64,000 bases of DNA, from the sequence record OP172796.1, one strand, 5' to 3'. Shown in pieces: positions 16,266 through 64,000 of this stretch (positions are counted from its first letter, which is position 1; every line of letters begins with the position of its first letter). The notes under the pieces were generated by a model. It was not told the DNA's origin. It ran no database searches and was given only the letters and a program-made list of their open reading frames with translations. Source of the DNA: Escherichia phage EF202P1. A program made the translations under genes and the position numbers.

Positions 16266-16266
16266 T

Positions 16267-17166: not shown

Positions 17167-17167
17167 A

Positions 17168-18486: not shown

Positions 18487-18499
18487 AGTTAATCACCTA

Positions 18500-18859: not shown

Positions 18860-18860
18860 A

Positions 18861-19160: not shown

Positions 19161-19365
19161 CTTTCTTCTTCCGTTTGCGTGAAGTGTCAATCAATGAATC
19201 TATGTTTGTAGCCCTAACCTTTTCACGTTCATCGTTAAGATAATCGTCGAGAGCCTTTTCAATCTGTGAATCATCTTGACAGATAACTGTAAAGACTGTA
19301 AAGCCGTCTGTATCATCAATTATCTTACCATAACCGCTTCTGGGATGTAACTTTTTAAGAGCCAT
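19153..19365 (-). CDS. hypothetical protein
   Basis: 70-aa ORF, basic C-terminus. Confidence 0.3.
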   Translation of the reverse strand: MALKKLHPRSGYGKIIDDTDGFTVFTVICQDDSQIEKALDDYLNDEREKVRATNIDSLIDTSRKRKKKDE

Positions 19366-19366
19366 A

Positions 19367-19750
19367 TCAAATACCTGTGCAGCTTCTGTTTTCTAAGAAA
19401 TACTCAACACCATACATAGCTTTTTGCATCAAATCTTCTTTAAACTGAATACGATGATTAAGCATAGCCTGTACATCAATATCATCATGGTGCTTCTCTT
19501 TAATATTTGCAGATTGCAGGAAATACTCTGCAAGAACACGATACTGATAGTCAGTTACCTTGTCAGTCATCTCTGTTAAAGACTCTTCAGAGATTGGTTT
19601 AAGTAACTCACCATTAGCCAAAGCAACACCTTTTACAATCTGGCAAGTGTCTTCTGGAACACCTGATAAGTCCACATTTGGAAGTTCTGTTGCATTGACT
19701 GGTAAATTCATTGCCATAACCATTGCAGCAGCTAATAAAATCTTTTTCAT
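19367..19750 (-). CDS. secreted/periplasmic protein with signal peptide
   Basis: N-terminal MKKILLAAAMVMAMNLPVNA signal-peptide-like segment; first gene of minus-strand operon. Confidence 0.45.
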   Translation of the reverse strand: MKKILLAAAMVMAMNLPVNATELPNVDLSGVPEDTCQIVKGVALANGELLKPISEESLTEMTDKVTDYQYRVLAEYFLQSANIKEKHHDDIDVQAMLNHRIQFKEDLMQKAMYGVEYFLENRSCTGI

Positions 19751-19970
19751 AATGACCTCAAAGTTATATTAAATTTTGTATTACATTGAGTATAAAAATA
19801 AGCTATAACACCTGACTTGTCAACAGATTTTATAGCTTATTTGGCAGATTTTTTATAAGGCTACTGCCATCCTTCCATACCTTACTTTACCGTACCTGAC
19901 AGTACAACACTTCAACTTACCCAACCACATAATACCCCACCTTATTAAAAGACCCTCTTAAAGACCTTTT

Positions 19971-20013
19971 AAAAAGGTAAGTCTCATTTTAATGTAGCTG
20001 AGACTAACTACCC
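19971..20013 (-). terminator. minus-strand hairpin with T-run (repeat unit terminator)
   Basis: On minus strand GGTAGTTAGTCTC-loop-GAGACTTACC then TTTTT. Confidence 0.45.
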
Positions 20014-20239
20014 ATACTTTACCTCGCCTAACCGCACCCGAATCAACCGGACTAGACCAAGCCCCACTGCACATCACCGAACCAAACATTACTTAAAAAC
20101 CCTTTTAAAAGACTCTTAAGTGATGTAATCGAATTTTTATGTAGTTCCGATTAACTACCCTTACCAGACATTACCGTACCTGACCCTACATAACCACTCC
20201 TTACCAAGCTCAACCTCATTAAAAGACCCTGTTTAAAGA

Positions 20240-20268
20240 CCTTTTAAAAAGGAGCCTCCGAAGAGGCT
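20240..20268 (-). terminator. minus-strand intrinsic terminator after cassette gene 20280..20720
   Basis: On minus strand AGCCTC-UUCG-GAGGCT then CCTTTTT. Confidence 0.6.
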
Positions 20269-20279
20269 ACCTAGTCAAC

Positions 20280-20720
20280 TTAGAAAGGCTTTCTACGTTG
20301 CTTGTTAATATTAGCTTTCATAGCAGCTAAGTGGTTTTGCTGTTCAATCAGTCGTGAACGTTCTTGATGACTAAGTGCCATAGTGTTCACATTCTCAATC
20401 GCTTGAGTGGCTTGCTTTAAAGCACGACCAATCTTACCAGACATTTTGCGTTTTGCAATAGTTGCTTGATGCTTAGGTTCAACCACACGATAACCAACAC
20501 CCATTGAAGCAACCAGATAAATCTTCTCTTCTTTAAGAAGCTTCTCAATAAACTTCTCAAGTCGGTTTAGACGTGTAAGTGCATAAGCCTTCATTTCATC
20601 TTCGTACTTAACAATGTCACCTTGATAAGTTGGCTTCACAATACCTAAGAAGGTATCCATCTCAGAATGTGATACAGTGTCACCGTAACTAAACTTTGCT
20701 GCTAATGCTTTTGTATTCAT
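20280..20720 (-). CDS. hypothetical protein (isolated cassette gene 2)
   Basis: 146 aa, basic C-terminus; followed on minus strand by UUCG-loop terminator. Confidence 0.45.
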   Translation of the reverse strand: MNTKALAAKFSYGDTVSHSEMDTFLGIVKPTYQGDIVKYEDEMKAYALTRLNRLEKFIEKLLKEEKIYLVASMGVGYRVVEPKHQATIAKRKMSGKIGRALKQATQAIENVNTMALSHQERSRLIEQQNHLAAMKANINKQRRKPF

Positions 20721-20722
20721 AA

Positions 20723-21355
<633 letters not shown>

Positions 21356-21359
21356 GAAC

Positions 21360-21697
21360 CCTCAACAGAAGACTCTTTAGAAACTTGGTAGATTTTTAAT
21401 GTGGCTACTACCATCCACCCATACCATGCCACACCACACCGGACCTTACCTAACCCGACCTTACCATACCTGACCTAACCCTACCATACATTATTAAAAG
21501 ACCCTGTTTAAAGACCTTTTAAAAAGGTAAGTCTCATTTTTATGTAGCTGAGACTAACTACCCACACCAAACCATAGCATACATCGCATTACCGGACAGA
21601 ACCATACTTTACCAAACATCACTTAAAAACCCTCTTAGAAGACTCTTAAGTGATGCTGGTGAGTACCCGTTGGTTTATGCTGCTCAGTATACTCACC
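21360..21697. repeat. second copy of the same intergenic unit family (two to three units)
   Basis: Same boxes and hairpins as 19866..20268, ending in GGTGAGTA/TACTCACC stem. Confidence 0.6.
21521..21563 (-). terminator. minus-strand hairpin with T-run downstream of ligase
   Basis: Same AGTCTC/GAGACT hairpin unit as at 19971..20013. Confidence 0.45.
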
Positions 21698-21719
21698 AAA
21701 TTTTCTATGTCAACAACTT

Positions 21720-22820
21720 TTATTCATAATCTCGTATAACCAGCCCAACAGGGAACTGTAAAGACCCCTTACGAGTCATCTTCTGGAACTGTACCGTTAA
21801 AGGTTTCCCGATAAACTCTTCAGGATGCTCAGCAAGATACTGTTTCTTCTCATGAGTAGTCTTCCATGAGACATCTACAAAGACATTAGGAAGAGTCTCT
21901 ACAACGAACTTGCCATGACCACGTTTATCTGTCTTTACACCAGTCACTTTAAACTCTTCAGTGTGCATCTTCTTGTGCTTAATCAAGAAGTATGAACGGT
22001 GACAACACTCATAGAAGGAGTCTTCAGAGATTGAACGGTACATTGCACCTTCAAACTTAGCTTCAACCCACTTATCATGAGCTTCATCAAACTCTTCCCA
22101 AGAATTTACACGACGAGACTTAACAGGAACAACTTTACAGCTGTCTCTGAAGTCATTCAATGGTGAAGTCTCAATAATATCTCTACGCTCAGGCCACGTC
22201 ATAGTACTGTCACAGATATCGTACCAGTAGAACTGGAGTAGATGTCGGTCTGGATTGTCAGCATTCTTAATCATAGACACAATATCTTCTAAGTCCCAAC
22301 CATGAGCATAAATCTCACCATCAAAGTCTTCGACTTGTGGATGCAATTTAAGCAACAAAAGCAAATCTGGGATTAGTTCTTCTGGGACGTTGTAAATAGT
22401 ATTCTCACGAGAATAAGCCGTGAAGCTAACTAAATCAGCATCTCTTGAAATTCTACAACGAACACCATCAAGTTTTGGTTGAGCATCAGCAGGGAATATC
22501 AAATACTTTGCATGACTAACCTTTGCAGCATCATGAGCAAGCTGCACACCTACCTTCTCAGTATTCTGTGCAGACTCTTTTGTGTAAGCATAACCTTTGC
22601 GGTCAACCTGCTTTTTATACTTTGCAGCAACTTCAAAGAGAGCTTGCTGTTCAGCGTTACGCTCATTCTTTTTACCGATGTTTTTAGGTTCTGCTGTATA
22701 CTCTTCAAACATCATCTTGCCATTTTCTTTACCGTAGGTTGTAATAACTTTGTCACCTACAGCAACACATGACCAGACGTTAAAAGAGCCGTCTTTATTT
22801 TGTTTGTACAGAATTGTCAT
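21720..22820 (-). CDS. ATP-dependent DNA ligase
   Basis: Adenylation motif I KLDGVRC; size about 366 aa from ATG with AGAGG RBS. Confidence 0.8.
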   Translation of the reverse strand: MTILYKQNKDGSFNVWSCVAVGDKVITTYGKENGKMMFEEYTAEPKNIGKKNERNAEQQALFEVAAKYKKQVDRKGYAYTKESAQNTEKVGVQLAHDAAKVSHAKYLIFPADAQPKLDGVRCRISRDADLVSFTAYSRENTIYNVPEELIPDLLLLLKLHPQVEDFDGEIYAHGWDLEDIVSMIKNADNPDRHLLQFYWYDICDSTMTWPERRDIIETSPLNDFRDSCKVVPVKSRRVNSWEEFDEAHDKWVEAKFEGAMYRSISEDSFYECCHRSYFLIKHKKMHTEEFKVTGVKTDKRGHGKFVVETLPNVFVDVSWKTTHEKKQYLAEHPEEFIGKPLTVQFQKMTRKGSLQFPVGLVIRDYE

Positions 22821-23013
22821 TTTTAACCTCTGAGTGATACCAAGTATTGCAAGCATTACATGCGTAAAGTTCTAAGTCATTTTTATCTGGTTTATGAAAA
22901 CAGTTTGCTCCACAGTGGCAACGAAACGGCTTTCCACCAACTGTCAGGATGAAGGATTGAACCTTTCCATCAGGAGTCCGTACAGCATTTTTATGCTTAT
23001 CTTCTTTATTCAT
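22795..23013 (-). CDS. zinc-finger small protein
   Basis: CHCGANC ... CNACN motif. Confidence 0.4.
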   Translation of the reverse strand: MNKEDKHKNAVRTPDGKVQSFILTVGGKPFRCHCGANCFHKPDKNDLELYACNACNTWYHSEVKNDNSVQTK

Positions 23014-23169
23014 TTGTGATATTGCCTTTGTCAGATTTCATATAGGACATGTTACTATGCCTTTTAATAAAATGTACAACGCATTTTGGTGTATCTTTTG
23101 TGTCTTTGATGTGCAATCTATCGAAACTGTGTACTGTGAAGGTTGCATCTGTCATTGTCTGCTTAGATT

Positions 23170-23376
23170 TCATTTTCTCTTACCACCAATCTCTACGTCA
23201 ATGACTTGAACATCACCAGCAACATCAAACTTATGAATGATGCTTTCCACAGTGTAAGTCCAACCCTCGATTCGAACCAACTCACCTTCTCGTGGGACGA
23301 TTGGGTTACGTTGAGCTACGGTTGTAGTGGAGTGAACAACATCATAACAGTAGATATAGTTTACTAGGACTTCCAT
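23170..23376 (-). CDS. hypothetical protein
   Basis: 68 aa from ATG with GAGG RBS, chosen to avoid overlap with lipoprotein gene. Confidence 0.3.
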   Translation of the reverse strand: MEVLVNYIYCYDVVHSTTTVAQRNPIVPREGELVRIEGWTYTVESIIHKFDVAGDVQVIDVEIGGKRK

Positions 23377-23386
23377 CTTGAAAACC

Positions 23387-23623
23387 TCACTCAATAACAG
23401 TAGTGTGTGATTGACCATTTTTGCCATAGCTATAAGATGTTGTTGTTTGAGAGTTTGGACATCTGACAACAACAATATCTCTGCTTATGGCATCACCATG
23501 TAACTTATAGACTTTGCAATCTTGCATCTCTGGTGGGAGGCTATAAGAAGCATTTTTGTCCTCGTAAGAGGGATTACAGCCAGATAGAAGGATAACACTA
23601 AGCACAATTACTGCTTTCCACAT
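23387..23623 (-). CDS. lipoprotein (candidate superinfection-exclusion/receptor-masking protein)
   Basis: MWKAVIVLSVILLSGC signal peptide with lipobox LSGC; AGGAGA RBS. Confidence 0.5.
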   Translation of the reverse strand: MWKAVIVLSVILLSGCNPSYEDKNASYSLPPEMQDCKVYKLHGDAISRDIVVVRCPNSQTTTSYSYGKNGQSHTTVIE

Positions 23624-23636
23624 AATACTTCTCCTA

Positions 23637-23795
23637 TTACTGTTCACGATGTTCTACTTCTCTGTACGTTCGTCGATAGTTTATAATAAGCTGTGCTAAC
23701 TCGTTGCTTTTAACATCTGAACGTAGAAGTTGCCAATCAAAACCTTTACCGACTCTTCCATACAAACTAAAGAATTTTACTTTGCGTTTCATTTT
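23637..23795 (-). CDS. small basic protein (not in ORF track, <60 aa)
   Basis: 52-aa ORF MKRKVKFFSLYGRVGKG... starting 12 nt after stop of 23810..24022 with GGAGA RBS; hand-derived coordinates. Confidence 0.3.
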   Translation of the reverse strand, partial: KMKRKVKFFSLYGRVGKGFDWQLLRSDVKSNELAQLIINYRRTYREVEHREQ

Positions 23796-52728: not shown

Positions 52729-52788
52729 TTTGTATTTTGTGCAGAGTGCTGTATAATTGAGGTCACGATAAACTAAACAGGAGAACCA

Positions 52789-56343: not shown

Positions 56344-57129
56344 ATGGGTATTGTAAAAATCATCAATGGGGATATCTTCTCCGCATTTGATAAAGGTAAG
56401 TTTGATATCATTGGTCACGGTTGCAACTGTATGAACTTAATGGGTGCAGGTATCGCTGACAAGATTTCTAAACTTTACCCAAAAGCATATGAGACCGATA
56501 CAGAAGTTTATCTGTATGCAGGTGGCATAGGTCACAAACCCTGTGAAAATTTACTAGGGAATTTCTCTGTAGCACGTTTAGAACAAGGCCGTATAGCTAA
56601 CCTTTACACTCAGCTTAAGACTGGTAAAGATGCCCGATACAGTGCTTTAGAGTCATCTTTGAAACAACTTAACAGATACTGTGAAGTTAATCAGTTGAAG
56701 AAAGTTGGTTTACCTATGATTGGTGCAGGTATTGGTGGACTTGACCCTCAAGCCGTCACAGTTATCATCAATCAGGTGATGAAGAGTGTAGATGTCTATC
56801 TATATGTCTATGAAGGAGAGATGTACCACAAGTTACGCTCAGGTTGGAAGAACTACTGTGAACCAGAATACTTTGCAGGTGTAGTAACGTTCACAGATAA
56901 CGCAGTTACCCTCTTCAGACGAAGAAAAGGTAAGATACATCAAAGTAACCCTCCGGTTGAAAAGATGTCTCTAAGTAACGCTCTAGTTACCCACCTGTCG
57001 AAGAGCAATCACAGAATTGCCGTGACATTTGGTAGCGATGCAGACACCTACATCTATGCAAGAACTGATGAGAATGTCGAGGAAATTTTCTCATCACCGG
57101 AAGTAACCTTCTTAGACGCAAAGAACTAA
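56344..57129 (+). CDS. macro-domain protein (ADP-ribose binding/hydrolase) with C-terminal extension
   Basis: N-terminal macro signature INGDIFSAF...FDIIGHGCNCMNLMGAGIA and later LPMIGAGIGGLDP. Confidence 0.65.
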   Translation: MGIVKIINGDIFSAFDKGKFDIIGHGCNCMNLMGAGIADKISKLYPKAYETDTEVYLYAGGIGHKPCENLLGNFSVARLEQGRIANLYTQLKTGKDARYSALESSLKQLNRYCEVNQLKKVGLPMIGAGIGGLDPQAVTVIINQVMKSVDVYLYVYEGEMYHKLRSGWKNYCEPEYFAGVVTFTDNAVTLFRRRKGKIHQSNPPVEKMSLSNALVTHLSKSNHRIAVTFGSDADTYIYARTDENVEEIFSSPEVTFLDAKN

Positions 57130-57160
57130 GAAACTCTGTATAATATTCACAATAGACTAA

Positions 57161-57204
57161 GCCTTTCTTATCTGGTAAATTTTTCAGGTAAGGAGGGCTT
57201 TTTC
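57161..57204 (+). terminator. candidate terminator after macro-domain gene
   Basis: GCCTTTCTTA ... TAAGGAGGGC then TTTTT (G-U pairs). Confidence 0.4.
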
Positions 57205-57400
57205 ATTTCAGGATTGTGCAGGTATAAATCTGTAGAGAAATCTGTAGAGAAAATTTTGAACTCCAAAGAGAAAATTCATTTTCAAACTGTGCAGATAATC
57301 TCCAAAGAGCTTTTTTATTTTCAAAACGTGCAGACCCCGCTCAGGTCGGGCAAGAAAAATCATTTTAGAATTGTGCAGGTAGGTGGGTGCAGGTGGGGAT
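57201..57400. repeat. cluster of short direct repeats (TTTTCAAA..TGTGCAGA, AATCTGTAGAGAA x2, CTCCAAAGAG x2)
   Basis: Four copies of (T)CATTTTCAAA(A/C)(T/C)GTGCAG(A/G) plus tandem 13-mers. Confidence 0.55.
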
Positions 57401-57558: not shown

Positions 57559-57587
57559 TTGACTCTTTGAGTATGGTTATCTAATAT
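57559..57587 (+). promoter_or_regulatory. sigma70-like promoter TTGACT-17-TAATAT at start of small-ORF array
   Basis: Near-consensus hexamers. Confidence 0.5.
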
Positions 57588-57635
57588 TTGCATCAGACGG
57601 GCAATCAAGCCCACTTCCTAAACTGGAGAATCAAA

Positions 57636-57842
57636 ATGCTTTACAGTCGTGAATTGATGGTTACAACTAACGTTAACACAAAGGTAAAACGTTTTTATAT
57701 GCAAGTGTGCGGCGCATGGCGTAGAATATCAGAAGCTGACTATTGCAACTATGTAGAAACGGCTATTAATTCTAATTGCTACCTTACAAGAAACACTAAG
57801 AAATTTACAAGGCAGACAGCGATTTACTACTACGACAAATAA
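57636..57842 (+). CDS. small hypothetical protein (array gene 1)
   Basis: ATG after RBS CTGGAGAATCAAA; sigma70-like promoter upstream. Confidence 0.4.
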   Translation: MLYSRELMVTTNVNTKVKRFYMQVCGAWRRISEADYCNYVETAINSNCYLTRNTKKFTRQTAIYYYDK

Positions 57843-57928
57843 AGTACTTTACAGGGGGCTTAAAAGCTGATATCTTAAGCCCCAGATAAAGAGCTTTACC
57901 ACTCAATCCTAAATTGGAGAACTTAAAA
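57843..57928 (+). promoter_or_regulatory. class-A cassette (TTTACA - hairpin - TATCTT/TAAAGT - conserved leader - RBS)
   Basis: AAGTACTTTACAGGGGGCTT...AAGCCCCAGATAAAGAGCTTTACC...GGAGA...ATG. Confidence 0.5.
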
Positions 57929-58309
57929 ATGGCATACCGTGCACCTAAATTCATCAACAAAGACAACTTTCGCAACGCACTGGAGAAGTCACTTGATGAA
58001 AATTTTAAAGGTAACATTATCGTTGTTCACGCATTCAATTTTAAGTATGATGTAAACGGGAATAGAATCAACCATTACACAGCAACCATGTTAGATGGTA
58101 CGCTATCAAGTGAAAAAGCTGTACTGAATGCACTTGCAGGACGTGGTAAAAACCTGATAAGATGCGATAAGAGACGTTATCAGGGTGGCGCATATGGTTA
58201 TGATGATGCTGTTTATCATCTTGAAAATATGGGCTATTCAGTGGAAAAAGCTGGAGTGTCTCAAATAATCGGCAGTGACGGCTATGTGACAATTTTCAAA
58301 ATTAACTAA
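57929..58309 (+). CDS. small hypothetical protein (array gene 2)
   Basis: ATG 8 nt after GGAGA RBS of conserved cassette. Confidence 0.45.
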   Translation: MAYRAPKFINKDNFRNALEKSLDENFKGNIIVVHAFNFKYDVNGNRINHYTATMLDGTLSSEKAVLNALAGRGKNLIRCDKRRYQGGAYGYDDAVYHLENMGYSVEKAGVSQIIGSDGYVTIFKIN

Positions 58310-58311
58310 TA

Positions 58312-58397
58312 AAGTACTTTACAGGGGGCTTATAGTTCGATAAAGTAAGCCCCAGATAAAGAGCTTTACCACTAAATCCTAAATTGGAGATTCAAAA
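58312..58397 (+). promoter_or_regulatory. class-A cassette
   Basis: Near-identical copy; hairpin GGGGCTTATAGTTCGATAAAGTAAGCCCC. Confidence 0.5.
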
Positions 58398-58655
58398 ATG
58401 GCTATTATTAAAAACGTTGTAATTCCTGCAAAAACTCGTGATGACGCTCGCATCATGGCGAAAAAGTTAGGCGGAAAAGTGGTTGACAACGGAAAACAAA
58501 CTGCTGTAAGGTGGGGCGTGAAAGCTGATAAGCAACTAACCTTAAAACGCAGTTCAAACAACCTTTTTAAAGGTGTAAAATCACTCGGTAAAGTGAACGT
58601 GTTTACCAAAAAAGGCTATAAAATGCACTTATCATTAACTGGCAATTTAATCTGA
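58398..58655 (+). CDS. small hypothetical basic protein (array gene 3)
   Basis: Cassette-preceded ORF. Confidence 0.45.
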   Translation: MAIIKNVVIPAKTRDDARIMAKKLGGKVVDNGKQTAVRWGVKADKQLTLKRSSNNLFKGVKSLGKVNVFTKKGYKMHLSLTGNLI

Positions 58656-58745
58656 TAAAGTACTTTACAGGGGGCTTAAAAGCTGATATCTTAAGCCCCA
58701 GATAAAGAGCTTTACCACTCAATCCTTAAACTAGGAGATTCAAAA
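58656..58745 (+). promoter_or_regulatory. class-A cassette
   Basis: Near-identical copy. Confidence 0.5.
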
Positions 58746-59258
58746 ATGAAAACTGTAGACGCTACCTTTGAAGTTGTAAAAGAAAAATTTTCCATAATTT
58801 ATGAGGCTGTCAATTGCTACGAAGCAAGCCATAATCTTGATAATTGGAAGTTTACAGATGACCATCAAGGCGGTGTGACTATTAAAAACCCCAACTGTCA
58901 GCGTAATGGATTTAAATATGCAATTCCTTTACATTACAGCCTTAAACAGCTTTCAATTGACTATGCAAAACAAGGCCGGGAAAATCCATCGAAAGAGGCT
59001 TACATCAGCTTACAGAAAGAACTAGAAAGAGATTTAGAGGCTTCAGAATATAACATCGCCGCGAAAGTTGTAGATGCAAACGGTAGCACGGTTTTAGAGA
59101 GTTTTTATATTGGTTATGCTTTCGATTGGTGCTACAGTGACGGCGATGATTTAGATGACAGACTAAAAGAGGAAGTGAACAACGCAGACGCAGAATCTGA
59201 AGTATTAGAACGCTTGGAAGCATTAAAAGATTCAGTGATGAATATCTTTAAGAACTAA
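58746..59258 (+). CDS. hypothetical acidic protein (array gene 4)
   Basis: Cassette-preceded ORF. Confidence 0.45.
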   Translation: MKTVDATFEVVKEKFSIIYEAVNCYEASHNLDNWKFTDDHQGGVTIKNPNCQRNGFKYAIPLHYSLKQLSIDYAKQGRENPSKEAYISLQKELERDLEASEYNIAAKVVDANGSTVLESFYIGYAFDWCYSDGDDLDDRLKEEVNNADAESEVLERLEALKDSVMNIFKN

Positions 59259-59349
59259 ATAGATTTCTTTACACGGGGCTAACAAGCGGATATGATAGCC
59301 CCAGATAAAGAGATTTATCAAATTAACCCTTAAACTAGGAGATTCTAAA
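59259..59349 (+). promoter_or_regulatory. class-A cassette (divergent copy, TTTACA-17-TATGAT)
   Basis: Hairpin sequence differs (CGGGGCTA...TAGCCCC) but hexamers and spacing kept. Confidence 0.5.
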
Positions 59350-59646
59350 ATGAAATTATCAAATAAAGTTAGGGAAAACCTTAGCAAATTACTCAATAAA
59401 ATTGATTTTATCGAGACATCAAGGAATAGTCATGATGTTATGGAATGGTTACACGGCAAAATAAAAGGCCGTCGCGTCGTGATTTGCTTATGGAATAGTT
59501 GCAGGGAATATAAAAAGCCTGTATTGCAAATTAATGTTTATGATGATACTTTTAAAAGTCCTGTAAAGTCTAAAAGCGATTTATTAGAATCCTATGAGAT
59601 AACTGTAAATGGCAAAGTATCATGTAAAGAGGAAGCACCATGTTAA
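59350..59646 (+). CDS. small hypothetical protein (array gene 5)
   Basis: Cassette-preceded ORF. Confidence 0.45.
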   Translation: MKLSNKVRENLSKLLNKIDFIETSRNSHDVMEWLHGKIKGRRVVICLWNSCREYKKPVLQINVYDDTFKSPVKSKSDLLESYEITVNGKVSCKEEAPC

Positions 59647-59972
59647 TGATGGGTATCACTGCAATCATTGCCATTATAGCACTGTACAAGGCTTATAGCG
59701 CATATAATTTGGCAAGTAAGGCAATCACGCAACAGGTTAATAATAGCCTTGTAATGAGCTTTCTGGAGCGTTTAAGTGATGAACAAATAAAACGGTTAGA
59801 AATGAGCTTCAGATTTCAATCAAAAACTTATCAAATCAGCGACATTTTCAAAGATAATTTTCAGCTTGTCGATGATTATAACTCTCTGATAAATGCTTTA
59901 AATATCAGTGACTTAAAAGACTATTACACTGTAATTGTCCAAGAACTGAACAAACGAAAAAATTTCTCTTGA
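59640..59972 (+). CDS. small membrane protein (array gene 6)
   Basis: N-terminal TM helix MLMMGITAIIAIIALY; overlaps upstream ORF. Confidence 0.4.
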   Translation: MLMMGITAIIAIIALYKAYSAYNLASKAITQQVNNSLVMSFLERLSDEQIKRLEMSFRFQSKTYQISDIFKDNFQLVDDYNSLINALNISDLKDYYTVIVQELNKRKNFS

Positions 59973-60062
59973 TTTTAGTTTTAAAAACAAGTAAATTACT
60001 AATCAACGGGGAGGGAATGACCTTCCCCACTAAGTAAAGTCCTTAAACTAGGAGATTCAAAA
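59969..60062 (+). promoter_or_regulatory. class-B cassette (TTGATT-17-TAAATT promoter, 5' hairpin GGGGAGG/CCTTCCCC, RBS)
   Basis: Promoter hexamers, then AATCAACGGGGAGGGAATGACCTTCCCCACTAAGTAAAGTCCTTAAACTAGGAGATTC..ATG. Confidence 0.55.
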
Positions 60063-60335
60063 ATGTACACTACTAACAACGGTCGCACCTTAAACGTAAC
60101 CCTACGTCACTATGTGAACGGTGTAATGCACTTCGAGGATTTACAAGCTGAACAGCACATTTTGGATTGGCAACTTGCAGGATTCCAAAAAACTGCTACC
60201 GGATACGGGAAAAAGATTCCAACTAGCTGGAAAGTATACTACGAAGGCCGTTTGCGTAGAATTTATCAAGATGTATGCGGCAATAGCGCATCAAGTTACA
60301 TCATAGTAAAAGGCAAAAAGCTGCATTTAGTATAA
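60063..60335 (+). CDS. small hypothetical protein (array gene 7)
   Basis: Cassette-preceded ORF. Confidence 0.45.
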   Translation: MYTTNNGRTLNVTLRHYVNGVMHFEDLQAEQHILDWQLAGFQKTATGYGKKIPTSWKVYYEGRLRRIYQDVCGNSASSYIIVKGKKLHLV

Positions 60336-60420
60336 AGTACTTTACAAGGGGCTTATAGTTCGATAAAGTAAGCCCCAGATAAAGAGCTTTACCACTAAAT
60401 CCTAAATTGGAGATTCAAAA
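60336..60420 (+). promoter_or_regulatory. class-A cassette
   Basis: Near-identical copy. Confidence 0.5.
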
Positions 60421-60825
60421 ATGGCTATTAATAATCGTGAGTTATCTATCTTAAAAGCACGTTTGACCGTCAACCGGATTAATGTTATCACATCATCAGC
60501 ACCAGATGAAACACTGCAAAACATTATTGGGAAGATTCAAAGTATTATCTTAGACGTTGAAAGCGTAAAAAACTCATTGGCTGACGTTGCAGCCGGTATC
60601 ACGCTAGACGGTGCACAACATGAGATGGCCGACATGTTAGGCAAATCAAAGGTAATGAATAAAGAGCTTGATTTAAAGATGTTCCGATTTGCTGTTAAAG
60701 TGTGGCTATCCGTCGAGTATGACGCTAATTTTGCAATCGCTGATTTCTTTGCCACTTGGTTACAACGTAACTTAACAAATCATGATTTCCGTGATGTCTG
60801 TGATGCAATCTACGCAGAACTTTAA
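60421..60825 (+). CDS. small hypothetical protein (array gene 8)
   Basis: Cassette-preceded ORF. Confidence 0.45.
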   Translation: MAINNRELSILKARLTVNRINVITSSAPDETLQNIIGKIQSIILDVESVKNSLADVAAGITLDGAQHEMADMLGKSKVMNKELDLKMFRFAVKVWLSVEYDANFAIADFFATWLQRNLTNHDFRDVCDAIYAEL

Positions 60826-60832
60826 AAAGATG

Positions 60833-60925
60833 TTGACACTGATTTTTAGATAGATTAAATTACTCATCAACGGGGAGGCAATAGCCTCCCTACTAAGTAA
60901 AGTCCTTAAACTAGGAGATTCAAAA
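60833..60925 (+). promoter_or_regulatory. class-B cassette (TTGACA-17-TAAATT)
   Basis: As above, hairpin variant GGGGAGGCAATAGCCTCCC. Confidence 0.55.
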
Positions 60926-61123
60926 ATGGCTATTATTAACGGCTTAAACATTGAAACAACACACATCAAAGATATCAAAGTTGGTGATGTAGTCCTTTCC
61001 CACGGCGTAGAAAAAACTGTCACTGCAAAGGATATCAAAGAGGATTCTTTCATGGGTAGAACTCTCTTCGGTGATTCTTATTGCTTAGGTTATCTTGCAG
61101 TTTTAAAAGTTGTCAAAAATTAA
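60926..61123 (+). CDS. small hypothetical protein (array gene 9)
   Basis: Cassette-preceded ORF. Confidence 0.4.
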   Translation: MAIINGLNIETTHIKDIKVGDVVLSHGVEKTVTAKDIKEDSFMGRTLFGDSYCLGYLAVLKVVKN

Positions 61124-61215
61124 GTAATAAAGTGCTTTACAAGGGGCTTAAAAAGTTGGTATCTTAAGCCCCAGATAAAGAGCTTTACACAGTCCTTAAA
61201 CTAGGAGATTAAAAA
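61124..61215 (+). promoter_or_regulatory. class-A cassette
   Basis: Near-identical copy. Confidence 0.5.
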
Positions 61216-61464
61216 ATGATGAACTATTTCAATGTCCCTGATACCTGCCGACTATTGACACAAGAAGAAAACTTGGGTAAACCTTTTCTTTACCACATAC
61301 CAGACAACACACCAAAAACTTATAGTTACAATGTCAACCGTTTTACCGCATACGCTGCAAAGAACGGTTATAAGTTGGTCACTCAAAAAGTAATGCTGGT
61401 TACAACCGCTGATGAGATTCCTACAGTTGCAGTTAAACTAATTTTCTCAAAAAAAGTTAAATAA
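61216..61464 (+). CDS. small hypothetical protein (array gene 10)
   Basis: Cassette-preceded ORF. Confidence 0.45.
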   Translation: MMNYFNVPDTCRLLTQEENLGKPFLYHIPDNTPKTYSYNVNRFTAYAAKNGYKLVTQKVMLVTTADEIPTVAVKLIFSKKVK

Positions 61465-61549
61465 AGTACTTTACAAGGGGCTTATAGTTCGATAAAGTAA
61501 GCCCCAGATAAAGAGCTTTACCACTAAATCCTAAACTGGAGATTCAAAA
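61465..61549 (+). promoter_or_regulatory. class-A cassette
   Basis: Near-identical copy. Confidence 0.5.
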
Positions 61550-62113
61550 ATGAAATGCTATCACGGAACTACCCTCAAAAACTTTGTAAACCTGCTGAAT
61601 GGTGGCGACAAGCCGGAAGGAATCTGGAACTGCTCATACATGGATGATTGTTTCTACGTTTACCCAATGAACAAGATTATCAAAACGGAATGTCTGGAAG
61701 ATGAGGAAGATTCTTACATTCGTGAACGCTGCATTCAAAACGCTTTAGAATCTGGGCTTATTACGGCAGCTTTCCAAATGGAAACGCAGGATGTAATTGT
61801 CATTGAGATGGATATCCCAGAGGAAGAGCTAGAGGATGATTATTCTTGTGACAACATGAGCGATATCGCCAGCTTTACCGGACACTTTGATAAAAATTGG
61901 ATTATTGGCCTTCACTCGACGAAATTTAGTGCGATGTATGCACCTTTCTTTGTACCAGATGCAACTAACCGCAATTTAGGCTATGTTGACGATGATTTGT
62001 TAAGTATGGCGAAAATTGTACAGAATAGCGGTGATAGTTCCGTGTTTTGTGACTTGCTGGATAAAATCACGGCAAACATCACAGAGTGCAATTTAAAAGA
62101 CTTTTTAGGTTAA
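61550..62113 (+). CDS. hypothetical strongly acidic protein (array gene 11)
   Basis: Cassette-preceded ORF; Asp/Glu-rich (EDEEDSY, EEELEDDYSCD). Confidence 0.45.
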   Translation: MKCYHGTTLKNFVNLLNGGDKPEGIWNCSYMDDCFYVYPMNKIIKTECLEDEEDSYIRERCIQNALESGLITAAFQMETQDVIVIEMDIPEEELEDDYSCDNMSDIASFTGHFDKNWIIGLHSTKFSAMYAPFFVPDATNRNLGYVDDDLLSMAKIVQNSGDSSVFCDLLDKITANITECNLKDFLG

Positions 62114-62176
62114 TCAGTACAAAGACACCAACTTCCAACTTAAGGCCCATACAGGGCCATTTAAAGGGCTTAAATC

Positions 62177-62410
62177 ATGCTTACAACCGTTTATCTTATC
62201 CTTTCTATTTGTAATGGTCATTCATGTGATTTTAAAGGGCTTGAGGAGTTTACAGGGAGTAAAGAAAATGCTATTCAAGTTTGCCAGATAGCAAGACAAG
62301 ACTATCCCGCCAGTGATGATATTCAATGTTACTTTAAGACAGAAGACAGCGACGGCGTTTATTTTGACAGTGTCGATGGTCAATATGAAATTATCATTGA
62401 AAAAGACTAG
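62177..62410 (+). CDS. small hypothetical protein (array gene 12)
   Basis: ORF after GGCCC hairpin. Confidence 0.4.
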   Translation: MLTTVYLILSICNGHSCDFKGLEEFTGSKENAIQVCQIARQDYPASDDIQCYFKTEDSDGVYFDSVDGQYEIIIEKD

Positions 62411-62501
62411 ACAAGCCTGATAAAAGTCTGTAAATTGTCAATCAACGGGGAGGGAATGACCTTCCCCACTAAATAAAGTCCTTAAACTAGGAGATTCTAA
62501 A
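62408..62501 (+). promoter_or_regulatory. class-B cassette (TAGACA-17-TAAATT)
   Basis: As above. Confidence 0.5.
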
Positions 62502-62843
62502 ATGGCTTATGTAACTGTAATTACCGATAAAGCTGGCGCATCTTGGTCAACTCAAGTAAGCGATAAGATGTCACCTATGCAGTGCCTAAAATACTTTGAG
62601 CAGTGGAACAAAGGCGAGGATGTAAGCCCCTTTCAAGTGATGCAGATTATCCATGTAGACAACGAAGGGAATAAAACGACGCTGAATAGTGAGCACTATG
62701 TAAGCCGTTTTGAAACGAGAAGTAAAACAATGAAACTTTTACGTGAATCCGGTTACGCCCATATCGCCGCGTTAATCTGGGATGACCTGCTAAAAAGACA
62801 GCGTATCAGCTATGTAAAACCTGAAAAAATATTTATCAGTTAA
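62502..62843 (+). CDS. small hypothetical protein (array gene 13)
   Basis: Cassette-preceded ORF. Confidence 0.45.
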   Translation: MAYVTVITDKAGASWSTQVSDKMSPMQCLKYFEQWNKGEDVSPFQVMQIIHVDNEGNKTTLNSEHYVSRFETRSKTMKLLRESGYAHIAALIWDDLLKRQRISYVKPEKIFIS

Positions 62844-62973
62844 TCAATAACTTACAAAAAACTTTTAAAAAGATGTTGACAATCCCTCTTGACATTGGTA
62901 ACTTTGTTCGAGGGGGGTTTATCTAAAAGGGATTAACTTAAAAGATTCTTTATAGATAGACTTAAAAAATTGC

Positions 62974-63066
62974 TTGCAATCAGATATCAAAACAAGTAAA
63001 TTACTCATCAACGGGGAGGCAATAACCTCCCTACTAAGTAAAGTCCTTAAACTAGGAGATTCTAAA
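62974..63066 (+). promoter_or_regulatory. class-B cassette (TTGCAA-17-TAAATT)
   Basis: As above. Confidence 0.5.
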
Positions 63067-63597
63067 ATGAACAAGTTCAAAGCTATCAACTATATTCGTT
63101 CCGTCAATGTCATGTCAAAGCCTGTAAAAGATACGTATGAATTTCGTTGTAATGGTGTACACTTCGCAACAATCACCAAATCAGAAAACGGGGCTTATTA
63201 CGTTCATCGCCGTAATGTTGCAACCGTTGTAGTCTCTCATTTTATGCAAGCTGTCGCGGAACTTCTCCCGATGTTTTTAGGTCTTTATTTAGATGAGTGT
63301 AAAAACGTTCACAGCCACGTTAAAAACCTTTTAAATAGCTATAAAATGGCTTATGAACGTTCTATCAAGTCCTTAAACAAGTTTTACAACGCACCTGAAA
63401 ATACTGTATCAATGGCCTACGATGTAAATGGTGAGGCGGTGAGTCTCTTTGAAGTGGAAGAAATCAAGCTGCATGATTTACGCCCTAGCGGTTACTCTAA
63501 GACTCTCGGTGAAGGTTTAACGTTCAATATCAAGAACTTAGAAAAAACTTTAAAAGATATTGAAAAAGATATTGACGAGACAATCAAAAATCTGTAA
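63067..63597 (+). CDS. hypothetical protein (array gene 14)
   Basis: Start at ATG after class-B cassette RBS. Confidence 0.45.
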   Translation: MNKFKAINYIRSVNVMSKPVKDTYEFRCNGVHFATITKSENGAYYVHRRNVATVVVSHFMQAVAELLPMFLGLYLDECKNVHSHVKNLLNSYKMAYERSIKSLNKFYNAPENTVSMAYDVNGEAVSLFEVEEIKLHDLRPSGYSKTLGEGLTFNIKNLEKTLKDIEKDIDETIKNL

Positions 63598-63663
63598 ATT
63601 GTCAATCAACGGGGAGGGAATGACCTTCCCCACTAAGTAAAGTCCTAAACTGGAGATTCAAAA
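63573..63663 (+). promoter_or_regulatory. class-B cassette (TTGACG-16-TAAATT)
   Basis: As above; -35 lies in 3' end of upstream CDS. Confidence 0.5.
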
Positions 63664-63927
63664 ATGGAACACGTCGAACTGACCACAATTTTACAAATTG
63701 CAACCGACAAAGAGGATGTAGCATTATTCCACCGTATCGAAAGTGACTTGTTCAATGGTGAAATCATTAAAGAATCTTACGAAGTGGTCGGATTCAAAGA
63801 TGGTAAATCATTTGGATTCTTTGACCTCGACAAAGGCAAAGCGGTTACAAAATATGATGTTTTATCTTGTGAGATTCTGACAAAATACAACGAAAAAAGA
63901 CTTGCAACATACGCCAACATGCAGTAA
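63664..63927 (+). CDS. small hypothetical protein (array gene 15)
   Basis: Cassette-preceded ORF. Confidence 0.45.
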   Translation: MEHVELTTILQIATDKEDVALFHRIESDLFNGEIIKESYEVVGFKDGKSFGFFDLDKGKAVTKYDVLSCEILTKYNEKRLATYANMQ

Positions 63928-63996
63928 ATTACTAATCAACGGGGAGGGAATGACCTTCCCCACTAAATAAAGTCCTTAAACTAGGAGATTCTAAAA
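63902..63996 (+). promoter_or_regulatory. class-B cassette (TTGCAA-17-TAAATT)
   Basis: As above; next ORF starts at about 63997 and runs off the window. Confidence 0.5.
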
Positions 63997-64000
63997 TGGC

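What the first reader, a model, noticed from the sequence alone, without database searches (positions are those of the whole stretch)
57843..64000. Array of at least 16 small ORFs, each with its own conserved promoter-hairpin-RBS cassette (two classes)
From 57.6 kb to the window end almost every small gene is preceded by a near-identical 85-95-bp element. Class A (7 copies) is AAGTACTTTACA-GGGGCTT..AAGCCCC hairpin-AGATAAAGAGCTTTACCACTAAATCCTAAATTGGAGATTCAAAA-ATG. Class B (6 copies) is a -35/TAAATT promoter, then AATCAACGGGGAGG..CCTCCCC hairpin, then ACTAAGTAAAGTCCTTAAACTAGGAGATTC(A/T)AAA-ATG. One gene, one cassette is unusual and implies strong, uniform, individually controlled expression of a hyperplastic accessory region; the products (65-190 aa, several strongly acidic or membrane-anchored) are all unrecognisable and are prime candidates for host-takeover or anti-defence proteins. 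The conserved leaders also offer recombination substrates for gene shuffling.
Basis: seen in the sequence. Interest (0 to 1): 0.75.

Follow-up and report, generated by a model that had tools for sequence, protein, structure and literature searches.

The report
Repeated promoter–hairpin cassettes before phage genes
In a Felix O1-like phage, almost every small early gene of unknown function has its own copy of a ~90-base promoter + hairpin + ribosome-site cassette; related phages have gained and lost whole genes at these cassettes, a design already described in T4-like phages under the name PeSL.

Summary
Between 57.5 kb and the window end, 16 co-oriented small ORFs are preceded by 7 class A cassettes, 6 class B cassettes and one related 'head' cassette. 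Two genes have none.

The window comes from a Felix O1-like myovirus (Felixounavirus).

- **Class B and head:** a sigma-70-type promoter (TTGnnn-17-TAAATT), then a G+C-rich hairpin starting 10-11 nt after the -10, at the inferred 5' end of the transcript.
- **Class A:** the promoter is TTTACA-17-TAnnnT, with the -10 in the apical loop of a ~57-nt three-helix hairpin. That hairpin can form only in RNA read through from the upstream gene.
- **Shared 3' part:** all cassettes end in the same leader, GGAG and ATG.

The cassettes occur across the subfamily Ounavirinae, with compensatory stem changes and other hairpin positions. Homology breakpoints between relatives fall in the cassettes (41 of 52), and each gene-sized indel leaves one hybrid cassette.

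This matches the anatomy and the role of the PeSLs of T4-like phages. No sequence homology to RB49 PeSLs was detectable, and I found no paper linking PeSLs to Felix O1-like phages.

Verdict: a new member of a known kind, of moderate interest. Promoter activity, hairpin function and protein functions remain inferred.

The parts
57159..57207 (+). Canonical intrinsic terminator (17-bp stem plus T-run) that closes the upstream module. It is the left boundary of the array.
   Evidence: Same sequence as terminator t13 of Felix O1.
57559..57635 (+). Head cassette: -35 TTGACT 57559-57564; -10 TAATAT 57582-57587; hairpin GGGC-AATCAA-GCCC 57599-57612; leader CCTAAACTGGAGAATCAAA; SD 57625; ATG 57636. An AT-rich stretch lies upstream of the -35.
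   Evidence: Fold -11.1 kcal/mol. P54 has AGGC..GCCT at the same place, a compensatory change.
57636..57842 (+). g01, 68 aa, unknown function
   Evidence: phrog_5293
57840..57928 (+). Class A cassette 1: -35 TTTACA 57848-57853; -10 TATCTT 57871-57876 in the loop; apical arms 57855-57862 / 57876-57883; outer helices pair M1 (57840-57851) with M2 (57887-57899); SD 57916.
57929..58309 (+). g02, 126 aa, unknown function
58310..58397 (+). Class A cassette 2: -35 58318-58323; -10 TAAAGT 58341-58346; arms 58325-58332 / 58346-58353; M2 58357-58369; SD 58386.
   Evidence: Fold -25.0 kcal/mol, z -4.1.
58398..58655 (+). g03, 85 aa, basic (pI 10.8), unknown function
58656..58745 (+). Class A cassette 3: -35 58664-58669; -10 TATCTT 58687-58692; arms 58671-58678 / 58692-58699; SD 58734.
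58746..59258 (+). g04, 170 aa, acidic (pI 4.6), unknown function. Absent from VpaE1_ev108, where one hybrid cassette remains.
59259..59349 (+). Class A cassette 4 (variant): -35 59268-59273; -10 TATGAT 59291-59296; arms GGGGCTA/TAGCCCC; 13-bp outer helix AUAGAUUUCUUUA/UAAAGAGAUUUAU.
   Evidence: Fold -26.6 kcal/mol, z -5.1.
59350..59646 (+). g05, 98 aa, unknown function
59640..59972 (+). g06, 110 aa, N-terminal hydrophobic segment. Overlaps g05 and has no cassette of its own.
59969..60062 (+). Class B cassette 1: -35 TTGATT 59969-59974 (overlaps the g06 stop codon); -10 TAAATT 59992-59997; hairpin 60008-60028; SD 60051.
60063..60335 (+). g07, 90 aa, unknown function
60336..60420 (+). Class A cassette 5: -35 60341-60346; -10 TAAAGT 60364-60369; arms 60348-60355 / 60369-60376; SD 60409.
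60421..60825 (+). g08, 134 aa, unknown function
60826..60925 (+). Class B cassette 2: -35 TTGACA 60833-60838; -10 TAAATT 60856-60861; hairpin GGGGAGGC-AATA-GCCTCCCT 60872-60891; SD 60914.
   Evidence: Fold z -3.2.
60926..61123 (+). g09, 65 aa, unknown function
61124..61215 (+). Class A cassette 6: -35 61136-61141; 18-nt spacer; -10 TATCTT 61160-61165; arms 61143-61150 / 61165-61172; SD 61204.
61216..61464 (+). g10, 82 aa, unknown function. Absent from momo, NBEco005, LF110P2 and Felix O1.
61465..61549 (+). Class A cassette 7: -35 61470-61475; -10 TAAAGT 61493-61498; arms 61477-61484 / 61498-61505; SD 61538.
61550..62113 (+). g11, 187 aa, acidic (pI 4.2), unknown function
62114..62176 (+). Atypical spacer: hairpin GGCCC-ATACA-GGGCC, no promoter-like site, different RBS.
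   Evidence: z -1.15, not significant
62177..62410 (+). g12, 77 aa, acidic (pI 4.1), unknown function
62408..62501 (+). Class B cassette 3: -35 TAGACA 62408-62413 (includes the g12 stop codon); -10 TAAATT 62431-62436; hairpin 62447-62467.
62502..62843 (+). g13, 113 aa, unknown function
62974..63066 (+). Class B cassette 4: -35 TTGCAA 62974-62979; -10 TAAATT 62997-63002; hairpin 63013-63032. It follows a 130-nt extra spacer that holds an orphan promoter-like site.
63067..63597 (+). g14, 176 aa, unknown function
63572..63663 (+). Class B cassette 5: -35 TTGACG 63572-63577, inside the g14 coding sequence; -10 TAAATT 63595-63600 (its TAA is the g14 stop codon); hairpin 63611-63631; SD 63652.
63664..63927 (+). 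g15, 87 aa, acidic (pI 4.9), unknown function
63902..63995 (+). Class B cassette 6: -35 TTGCAA 63902-63907, inside g15; -10 TAAATT 63925-63930 (its TAA is the g15 stop codon); hairpin 63941-63961.
63996..64000 (+). Start of g16, cut off by the window end. In relatives this is a 249-nt last gene followed by a canonical terminator.

Best explanation
The region is the early accessory-gene array of a Felix O1-like phage. It is built from PeSL-type composite cassettes. Each ~90-nt cassette joins three modules. (1) A host sigma-70 promoter. (2) A G+C-rich stem-loop whose position relative to the promoter differs by class. (3) A standard leader with GGAG and an 8-9-nt A-rich spacer before the ATG.

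In class B and the head cassette the stem-loop begins 10-11 nt after the -10. The transcript would therefore start with 2-3 free bases followed by a stable hairpin. That arrangement is known to protect E. coli mRNAs from 5'-end-dependent decay.

In class A the -35 lies in the 5' strand and the -10 in the apical loop of a ~57-nt three-helix hairpin. [quoted passage not shown] It can fold only in RNA read through from the upstream gene, where it would mark or stabilise an intercistronic boundary.

No cassette has a U-tract, and canonical terminators sit only at the two ends of the array. I therefore expect nested, co-terminal transcripts rather than insulated single-gene units.

Because the same ~90 bp recurs about 14 times in direct orientation, homologous recombination between cassettes deletes, inserts or swaps whole gene+cassette units.

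Shown here: the repeats, the conserved promoter geometry, the stem covariation and the breakpoints. Inferred: promoter activity, transcription start sites, and what the hairpins do.
For: - **Source:** Felixounavirus; 252 related records at 90-96% identity, but only one covers 80% or more of the region.
- **Class B promoter:** the -35 scores at least 4 of 6 in 61 of 66 distinct contexts, against 16% in background. The spacer is 17 nt in 51 of 66. This holds even where the -35 lies in the coding ends of different genes.
- **Class B hairpin:** it starts exactly 10 nt after the -10 in every true copy found in the fetched loci (52 of 54 pattern matches; the other 2 are false matches), while about 17 different stem sequences occupy that position. 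G.U pairs occur in the stems.
- **Class A promoter:** across 42 distinct cores, the only invariant loop bases are the T and A 17 nt after TTTACA, and the closing T is also invariant. These are the sigma-70 positions -12, -11 and -7. The scan flags all 7 copies. An alternative promoter upstream of the hairpin has no -35 above background.
- **Class A apical stem:** 97.5% of cells are paired. One pair switches G-C to U-A, and another C-G to U.G.
- **Class A extended hairpin:** folds at -21 to -26.6 kcal/mol, z -2.1 to -5.1. One outer pair is G-C in 57 variants, U-A in 9 and unpaired in 6.
- **Distribution:** class A is found in 287 records, including Mooglevirus, Suspvirus and Kolesnikvirus (Erwinia phages). 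Class B is found in 235.
- **Other hairpin positions in relatives:** loop around the -35 with a U-tract; hairpin wholly within the spacer; GGGGG-TTAAAAT-CCCCC around the -10.
- **Recombination:** 41 of 52 internal alignment ends lie in cassettes, which cover 22.6% of the region. Six unit indels leave one hybrid cassette, seen as flank overlaps of 78-97 nt. Chimeric cassettes exist.
- **Terminators:** the only canonical one in the scanned region is at 57159-57200. Relatives have one after the last gene.
- **Expression timing:** Felix O1 RT-PCR puts ORFs 16, 20, 21 and 22 of this array at their maximum 5 min after infection.
- **Published analogue:** PeSLs have the same parts, the same variable hairpin positions and the same proposed role. 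I read them directly in RB49.
Against: - No transcript data exist for any of these phages in the searched literature.
- The hexamers are only moderate matches (8-10 of 12). Three class B promoters fall below the scan threshold.
- Felix O1 ORFs 14, 17, 19 and 23 of the same array peak at 25 min, not 5 min.
- The structures are more stable as + strand RNA than as - strand RNA in Mooglevirus, Suspvirus and Kolesnikvirus (about 5 kcal/mol). This is not so in Felixounavirus, the window's own genus, nor for class B. RNA-level selection is therefore not demonstrated for this genome.
- Most stem pairs never vary. The fully compensatory changes trace to one or two lineages.
- The breakpoint count treats related genomes as independent.
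- The published PeSL stem-loop was scored as a strong terminator in a reporter assay, which my no-termination reading does not explain.
Confidence: 0.75

Rival explanations
1. There are no internal promoters. One long transcript from the head promoter (57559-57587) covers the whole array. The cassettes are purely RNA elements that punctuate it: processing or stability hairpins plus a standard translation-initiation region.
For: The head promoter is the best-looking one and has an AT-rich upstream stretch. Canonical terminators occur only at the array ends. The leader and hairpins are the most conserved parts. Class A folds into a ~20-bp interrupted helix resembling the intercistronic hairpins of T7 early mRNA (the T7 comparison is from my own knowledge).
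Against: The -35 hexamers of class B are kept at a 17-nt spacing inside unrelated coding sequences (61 of 66 against 16% background). The only invariant loop bases of class A are those a -10 hexamer needs. An RNA-only element would not need either.
Confidence: 0.1
2. The hairpins are transcription terminators or attenuators that insulate each gene, as the PeSL authors proposed and as some GenBank records annotate. Each gene would then be a separate promoter-to-terminator unit.
For: The stem-loop of one RB49 PeSL lowered downstream lacZ expression as much as rrnB T1. The XTG1 and ASO1B records label the class B hairpins 'rho-independent terminator'. One Kolesnikvirus cassette has a genuine hairpin plus U-tract with the -35 in its loop.
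Against: None of the 14 cassette hairpins in the window is followed by a T-run. The scan finds no terminator in any spacer, while the same genome uses textbook terminators at module borders. The class A loops are 11-14 nt long. A class B hairpin acting as a terminator would stop its own transcript at about +25. XTG1 annotates these features on the wrong strand.
Confidence: 0.12
3. The inverted repeats are DNA operators. A phage-encoded dimeric regulator binds them, overlapping the -10 (class A) or +1 (class B), to shut off or time early transcription.
For: The repeats sit where repressors usually act. The AAAG-NN-CTTTAC motif occurs exactly twice per class A cassette. Half of the Felix O1 array genes peak late rather than early.
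Against: About 17 different stem sequences, with loops of 4 to 9 nt, occupy the same position in class B. Stems change by compensatory and G.T substitutions. The AAAG..CTTTAC motifs pair with each other and covary, which explains their conservation. A sequence-specific protein would not tolerate this variation.
Confidence: 0.05
4. The cassettes are sites for structure-specific recombination. They would be folded single-strand hairpins used like integron attC sites, or small mobile palindromic elements, rather than passive stretches of homology.
For: Breakpoints concentrate in the cassettes. Class A is an imperfect hairpin with internal loops, flanked by 12-nt direct repeats. The PeSL authors raised a dedicated recombinase as a possibility and detected mini-circles.
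Against: Crossover points differ from case to case: promoter part, hairpin or leader. That is what general homologous recombination gives. None of the array's own proteins matches any Pfam family; elsewhere in the window nothing was searched for a recombinase. The flanking direct repeats are explained by the outer helix.
Confidence: 0.04

Closest known systems
PeSLs (promoter-early stem-loops) of T4-like myoviruses RB49/phi1, T4/PST and KVP40/nt-1 (Arbiol et al. 2010, PMC2839356; Comeau et al. 2014, PMC4122927)
   Same: - Intergenic ~100-nt repeats in front of small genes of unknown function.
- The same order of parts: upstream stop codon in an AT-rich stretch, sigma-70-type -35 and -10 at 17 nt, a GGGG..CCCC stem-loop, a Shine-Dalgarno sequence, ATG.
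- The stem-loop can lie around the -35, within the spacer, around the -10 or just after the -10.
- No U-tract after the stem in the RB49 copies I read.
- Gene-sized indels between relatives with junctions in the repeats.
- The class A promoter TTTACA-17-TAnnnT resembles the T4/PST PeSL consensus TTTACW-17-TAYWAT.
   Different: - The host phage belongs to Ounavirinae, not the T4-like phages.
- No detectable sequence homology: profile searches in both directions give a best E-value of 0.014-0.047.
- Class A extends into a three-helix ~57-nt hairpin that encloses the whole promoter, and I saw nothing similar in RB49.
- All copies sit in one array of about 14 rather than ~30 spread over several regions.
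- Promoter, attenuator and mini-circle activities were shown experimentally for PeSLs only.
5'-terminal stem-loop mRNA stabilisers of E. coli, e.g. the ompA and papA leaders (Emory, Bouvet and Belasco 1992; listed in the review PMC3997798)
   Same: Class B and the head cassette put a stable hairpin 2-3 nt from the inferred 5' end, the geometry reported to block 5'-end-dependent decay.
   Different: The start site here is inferred, not mapped, and no stability data exist. Class A does not fit, because its hairpin lies upstream of its own start site.
Intercistronic RNase III processing hairpins of phage T7 early mRNA (my own knowledge, not tested here)
   Same: Class A is an interrupted ~20-bp helix (lower stem, internal loop, upper stem) between cistrons of a read-through early transcript.
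   Different: No cleavage data. T7 sites do not contain promoters. Class B hairpins (7-8 bp) are too short.
Morons of lambdoid phages and integron gene cassettes
   Same: Single accessory genes that travel with their own expression signals, and an array of short cassettes.
   Different: Morons have no shared flanking repeat. Integrons need an integrase and attC sites and rely on one common promoter. Here each unit has its own promoter, and no recombinase is evident.

Membership tests
PeSL (promoter-early stem-loop cassette) | Repeated intergenic motif placed directly upstream of small ORFs of unknown function in a variable early region | tested here: met
   14 cassettes before 14 of 16 ORFs. 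None occurs elsewhere in the 64 kb. The ORFs have no known family.
PeSL (promoter-early stem-loop cassette) | Sigma-70-like -35 and -10 boxes at about 17-nt spacing, with an AT-rich stretch upstream | tested here: met
   Class A is TTTACA-17/18-TAnnnT. Class B is TTGnnn-17-TAAATT. Conservation is far above background. Activity was not tested.
PeSL (promoter-early stem-loop cassette) | Stable G-run/C-run stem-loop joined to the promoter, at one of several positions relative to the boxes | tested here: met
   Around the -10 (class A) and just after the -10 (class B). In relatives also around the -35 and within the spacer.
PeSL (promoter-early stem-loop cassette) | Shine-Dalgarno sequence and start codon of the downstream gene at the 3' end of the motif | tested here: met
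   GGAG, then an 8-9-nt A-rich spacer, then ATG, in all cassettes.
PeSL (promoter-early stem-loop cassette) | Insertions, deletions and replacements between close relatives have their junctions in the motifs | tested here: met
   41 of 52 alignment ends lie in cassettes. Unit indels leave one hybrid cassette.
PeSL (promoter-early stem-loop cassette) | Demonstrated promoter strength, attenuation by the stem-loop, and mini-circle formation | not testable with these tools
   Needs reporter fusions and inverse PCR on infected cells.
PeSL (promoter-early stem-loop cassette) | Sequence relatedness to published PeSLs or occurrence in a T4-like phage (the known distribution, not part of the published definition) | tested here: not met
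   The phage is a Felixounavirus. The RB49 PeSL profile against Ounavirinae gives a best E-value of 0.014, and the reverse search 0.047. PeSLs of different T4-like lineages also differ in sequence from one another.
Rho-independent (intrinsic) terminator | G+C-rich hairpin with a short loop, followed directly by a U-tract | tested here: not met
   No T-run follows any cassette hairpin. The scan finds none in the spacers. Class A loops are 11-14 nt long.
5'-terminal stabilising stem-loop | Hairpin within a few unpaired nucleotides of the transcript's 5' end | tested here: inconclusive
   The hairpin starts 10 nt after the -10 in the class B copies and 11 nt in the head cassette, which implies 2-3 free nt. 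The start site itself is inferred.
Rfam RNA families | Match to a curated covariance model | tested here: not met
   Only a sub-threshold chance match to mir-22 (21 bits against a gathering score of 48).

The most novel reading that the evidence does not exclude
Class A is a dual-entry expression element. The ~57-nt hairpin that encloses the promoter would be an RNase III-type processing site in read-through RNA. Cleavage in its 3' internal loop (CCCC/AGAUAAAG) would create almost the same 5' end as initiation at the embedded promoter. Each gene would then yield the same mRNA whether it is transcribed from its own promoter or from any promoter upstream, and the upstream mRNA would keep a protective 3' hairpin. 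More broadly, unrelated virulent phage families would have converged on integrase-free 'gene cassette' arrays.
Probability: 0.15. Interest if true: 0.6.

Novelty: new member of a known kind. Interest (0 to 1): 0.36.

Why it matters
Felix O1-like phages are widely used for Salmonella typing, diagnostics and biocontrol, yet the Felix O1 genome paper states that how their transcription is organised is unknown. It listed these elements only as direct repeats.

Recognising them as PeSL-type cassettes has four consequences.

1. It gives a concrete promoter map for the early accessory region.
2. It explains the patchy gene content seen among about 250 sequenced relatives.
3. It shows that this 'one gene, one portable promoter-hairpin-RBS' design is not peculiar to T4-like phages.
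4. It points to natural, tolerated insertion sites, with ready-made expression signals, for engineering these phages.

The roughly 16 small proteins remain an uncharacterised set of likely early effectors.

Tried and rejected
1. **A second promoter upstream of the class A hairpin.** I tested TAAAGT at the stop codon as a -10, which would put the hairpin at the 5' end as in class B. Rejected: its -35 position matches TTGACA no better than background (at least 4 of 6 in 12 of 103 contexts, against 16%), and TAAAGT is not kept in the Erwinia phages.
2. **AAAG-NN-CTTTAC as a protein-binding palindrome or target-site duplication.** It occurs twice per class A cassette. The better explanation is that the two copies pair with each other as the outer helices of the hairpin and covary.
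3. **Sequence homology to RB49 PeSLs.** Short shared strings exist (GGAGAATCAAAATG, CATCAA/ATCGAAAC), but profile searches in both directions are not significant.
4. **Strand asymmetry as proof of RNA-level selection.** Significant overall for class A, but absent in the window's own genus and in class B. I do not rely on it.
5. **Rfam.** Nothing.
6. **Protein function.** Pfam, PHROGs and PDB sequence searches gave no function.
7. **Published transcript maps.** Literature searches for Felix O1-like phages found none.
8. **A 52-aa ORF inserted in a class B leader in some relatives.** I checked it for cross-family transfer. It occurs in only 26 records, all of Felix O1-like genome size (86-98 kb).
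9. **An exact motif hit at 18608.** It lies in a coding sequence and is a chance match.

Full report
**What is in the sequence.** From 57.5 kb to the end of the window there are 16 small ORFs on the + strand (65-187 aa; the last is cut off at 64000). The class A core occurs 7 times and the leader/RBS 12 times. Shuffled sequence gives none, and there are no copies elsewhere in the 64 kb.

Reading the spacers gives 7 class A cassettes, 6 class B cassettes and a related head cassette in front of the first gene. Two genes have no cassette. The gene at 59640 overlaps the end of its neighbour, and the gene at 62177 has a different 63-nt spacer.

**Where it comes from and what was already said.** The window is from a Felix O1-like myovirus (Felixounavirus, subfamily Ounavirinae). 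252 phage records match at mostly 80-96% identity, but only one covers 80% or more of the region, which already indicates mosaic content.

The Felix O1 genome paper lists a 57-bp and a 39-bp 'direct repeat' between genes 15/16, 19/20, 18/19 and 20/21. These are class A and class B. The paper assigns them no function and says that how transcription passes the terminators, and how it is timed, is unknown. Two GenBank records label some of the hairpins 'terminator' and some upstream hexamers 'promoter', piecemeal. No paper in the searchable library connects these phages with PeSLs.

**Class B and the head cassette.** Each has a -35-like hexamer (TTGACA, TTGCAA, TTGACG, TTGATT, TAGACA, TTGACT), a 17-nt spacer and a -10 (TAAATT; TAATAT in the head cassette). 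In three copies the -10 or the -35 contains the stop codon of the upstream gene, and the -35 lies inside unrelated coding sequence.

Across the window and 15 related loci, the -35 matches TTGACA in at least 4 of 6 positions in 61 of 66 distinct contexts. At random positions the figure is 16%. That is selection for a promoter, not inheritance of a repeat.

The hairpin starts exactly 10 nt after the -10 (NNNNATCAAC, then GGG...) in every true copy found in the fetched loci (11 nt in the window's head cassette). About 17 different stems occupy that position, among them GGGGAGGG/CCTTCCCC, GGGGAGGC/GCCTCCCT, GGGGGA/TCCCCC, GGGGC/GCCCC, GGGC/GCCC and GGGA/TCCC. G.U pairs occur in them. With a start 7-9 nt after the -10 (inference from standard sigma-70 geometry), the RNA begins with 2-3 free bases and then a hairpin. 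The hairpins themselves are worth about -8 to -16 kcal/mol. The predicted 5' UTRs of the five class B copies folded come to -17 to -20 kcal/mol, and the head cassette to -11.

**Class A.** The -35 is TTTACA. Seventeen nt later (18 in one copy) comes a hexamer that reads TATCTT, TAAAGT, TATGAT and, in relatives, TAAGAT, TAGTAT, TACAGT, TAATAT and others. In an alignment of 42 distinct class A cores, the only invariant bases of the 13-nt loop are this T and A, and the closing T is also invariant. These are the -12, -11 and -7 positions that matter most for sigma-70. All seven copies are picked up by the promoter scan.

I tested a rival promoter that would use TAAAGT at the stop codon as its -10. 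It has no -35 above background and is not conserved in Erwinia phages. The 5' arm of the hairpin therefore lies upstream of the cassette's own start site.

Folding the whole spacer shows more than the 8-bp GGGGCTTA/TAAGCCCC stem. The motif TAAAGTACTTTA, which contains the stop codon and the -35, pairs with TAAAGAGCTTTA downstream. Together they give a three-helix hairpin of about 57 nt, at -21 to -26.6 kcal/mol and z down to -5.1.

Covariation is modest but real:
- One apical pair switches G-C to U-A in 7 variants of the Erwinia-phage lineage.
- Another apical pair is U.G in 28 variants and C-G in 14, and overall 97.5% of cells are paired.
- One outer pair is G-C in 57 variants, U-A in 9 and unpaired in 6. 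The window's own variant cassette at 59259 carries the U-A form in a 13-bp outer helix.

**The shared leader.** All cassettes end in CACTAA..CCT(T)AAAYT(A)GGAGAWTCWAAA-ATG. A small hairpin, (U)CCU/AGG(A), takes in the first half of the GGAG. The two forms CCT..GGAG (119 copies) and CCTT..AGGAG (61 copies) never occur as hybrids. The two sites are only 6 nt apart, so linkage could explain this as well as pairing.

**Distribution and variants.** Class A-like sequence is found in 287 phage records, including Mooglevirus, Suspvirus and 29 Erwinia phages. Class B is found in 235 records. In the more distant genera the sequences diverge but the design persists. Further hairpin positions also appear:
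- A true hairpin plus U-tract whose loop is the -35 TTTACA.
- A hairpin lying entirely within the 17-nt spacer.
- GGGGG-TTAAAAT-CCCCC with the -10 as its loop.

**Gene gain and loss at the cassettes.** I aligned the array to nine Felixounavirus relatives. 41 of 52 internal alignment ends lie within cassettes, which make up 22.6% of the region. The nominal p-value is 1e-17, but the genomes are related, so this is an illustration rather than a proper test.

Six junctions show flanking alignments that overlap by 78-97 nt in the genome lacking one to four genes. One hybrid cassette remains where the window has two, which is the footprint of recombination between direct repeats. Chimeric cassettes exist: the head promoter joined to a class B hairpin, a class A 5' half joined to another leader, and a class A stub fused to the RBS. 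A 52-aa ORF sits inside a class B leader in only 26 genomes, at almost 100% identity.

Gene order is nonetheless collinear in Felixounavirus, Mooglevirus and Suspvirus, and rearranged only in the Erwinia phages. Most genes have homologues across the subfamily. 'Hyperplastic' is true only in the sense of unit presence or absence.

**What the hairpins do.** They are not canonical terminators. None is followed by a T-run, and the scan finds no terminator in any spacer. The genome does use textbook terminators at module borders, including one just before the array, and relatives have one just after its last gene. I therefore expect several promoters feeding nested transcripts that end together.

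For class B, the 5'-terminal position matches the geometry known to slow 5'-end-dependent decay in E. coli (Emory et al. 1992 and Bouvet and Belasco 1992, as listed in PMC3997798; the rule itself is from my own knowledge).

For class A, the structure can form only in read-through RNA. It could protect the 3' end of the upstream message or be a processing site. Its shape recalls the RNase III sites of T7 early RNA (my own knowledge, untested).

Whether selection acts on RNA at all is only partly shown. The + strand RNA is about 5 kcal/mol more stable than the - strand RNA in Mooglevirus, Suspvirus and Kolesnikvirus, but not in Felixounavirus and not for class B. The one experiment on a PeSL stem-loop found a strong drop in downstream reporter expression. 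Attenuation by an unknown route therefore stays open.

**The genes.** None of the 15 complete products matches a Pfam family. Each belongs to a PHROG of unknown function. The five largest have no sequence relative in the PDB. Five are acidic (pI 4.1-5.1), one is very basic, and one has an N-terminal hydrophobic segment. In Felix O1, RT-PCR detected transcripts of the tested array genes. ORFs 16, 20, 21 and 22 peak at 5 min, and ORFs 14, 17, 19 and 23 at 25 min. Host-takeover or anti-defence roles are guesses.

**Comparison with what is known.** The PeSLs of T4-like phages are defined by the features found here. They are repeats in front of ORFans in variable regions. Their parts run in the same order: stop codon in an AT-rich stretch, sigma-70-like boxes, a GGGG..CCCC stem-loop in one of five positions relative to the boxes, then SD and ATG. 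They also serve as crossover points for gene-sized indels. I read the RB49 copies directly. They have the stem-loop in the spacer or around the -10, no U-tract, and a GGAGAATCAAAATG-type initiation region.

Every architectural and comparative criterion is met. The experimental criteria cannot be tested here. Sequence homology is not detectable (best E-values 0.014 and 0.047 in reciprocal profile searches), but PeSLs of different T4-like lineages also differ in sequence from one another.

I file this as a PeSL-type system in a phage subfamily where, as far as I could find, it has not been described. The three-helix class A hairpin is a local peculiarity.

**Verdict.** The finding is real and more than chance. 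Its mechanism is largely explained by a published model, and its interest lies in extending that model outside the T4-like phages and in giving Felix O1-like phages an early-promoter map. Promoter activity, start sites, hairpin function and protein functions remain inferences that simple transcript mapping would settle.

Noticed in passing
window 57206-57378 (also 52729-52744): Four ~35-nt direct repeats, each ending in TGTGCAG(G/A), fill the gap between the canonical terminator and the head promoter of the array. One more TGTGCAG directly follows the terminator at 52705. This could be a regulator-binding or phage-specific promoter motif. The motif is only weakly enriched over the whole window (16 matches against 9.3 expected).
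   Followed up: partly
window 62866-62925: An orphan promoter-like site (AAAAAGATGTTGACA-17-TAACTT) with a CCCTC..GAGGG inverted repeat and no ORF behind it. It lies inside the unusually long 223-nt spacer before the gene at 63067. One related record annotates a promoter and a terminator here. It may be the relic of a lost gene's cassette or a small RNA.
   Followed up: no
window 19889-21655: A dense cluster of 45-90-nt direct repeats with ACC-rich periodic sequence (3-5 copies per family), apparently non-coding. Function unknown.
   Followed up: no
window 48223, 52705, 54498, 57159: Textbook intrinsic terminators mark module borders: three copies of a shared family (GGCTCC-TTCG-GGAGCC plus T-run) and a different long-stem terminator at 57159. 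They contrast with the cassette hairpins, which lack U-tracts.
   Followed up: partly
window 56344-57129: The gene just upstream of the array encodes a Macro-domain protein (PF01661, E 1.2e-7). It is annotated as 'phosphatase' in relatives.
   Followed up: partly
window 62114-62176: The one spacer with a different element: hairpin GGCCC-ATACA-GGGCC, no promoter-like site, different RBS. Relatives carry AAGCCCC-GCACA-GGGGCTT at the same place, which is the class A arms in inverted order.
   Followed up: partly
window 59640-59646: The gene at 59640 starts inside the end of the gene at 59350 (ATGTTAATGA). This suggests translational coupling, and it is the only gene pair in the array that behaves as a fixed two-gene unit in all relatives.
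   Followed up: partly
L007 5845-6003 (phage P54); also L004, L008: A 52-aa ORF inserted inside a class B leader between the homologues of the window genes at 59640 and 60063. It is present in only 26 Felix O1-like genomes, at almost 100% identity, which suggests a recent spread by recombination.
   Followed up: yes
L016 (RB49) 14500-23700: RB49 PeSLs share short strings with the Ounavirinae cassettes (GGAGAATCAAAATG; CATCAA/ATCGAAAC just after the -10), although profile searches find no significant similarity. This could be convergence on a favoured initiation context or very old exchange.
   Followed up: partly
public records PV390658.1 and GU169904.1: Database oddities. The 88-kb phage P54 is filed under Tequatrovirus but is Felix O1-like. 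The Staphylococcus phage SA1 record contains Felix O1-like cassettes.
   Followed up: no
window 12700-15500: Repeated coding segments of 30-81 nt in what are presumably tail-fibre genes, matching the repeats reported between Felix O1 gp76 and gp77.
   Followed up: no
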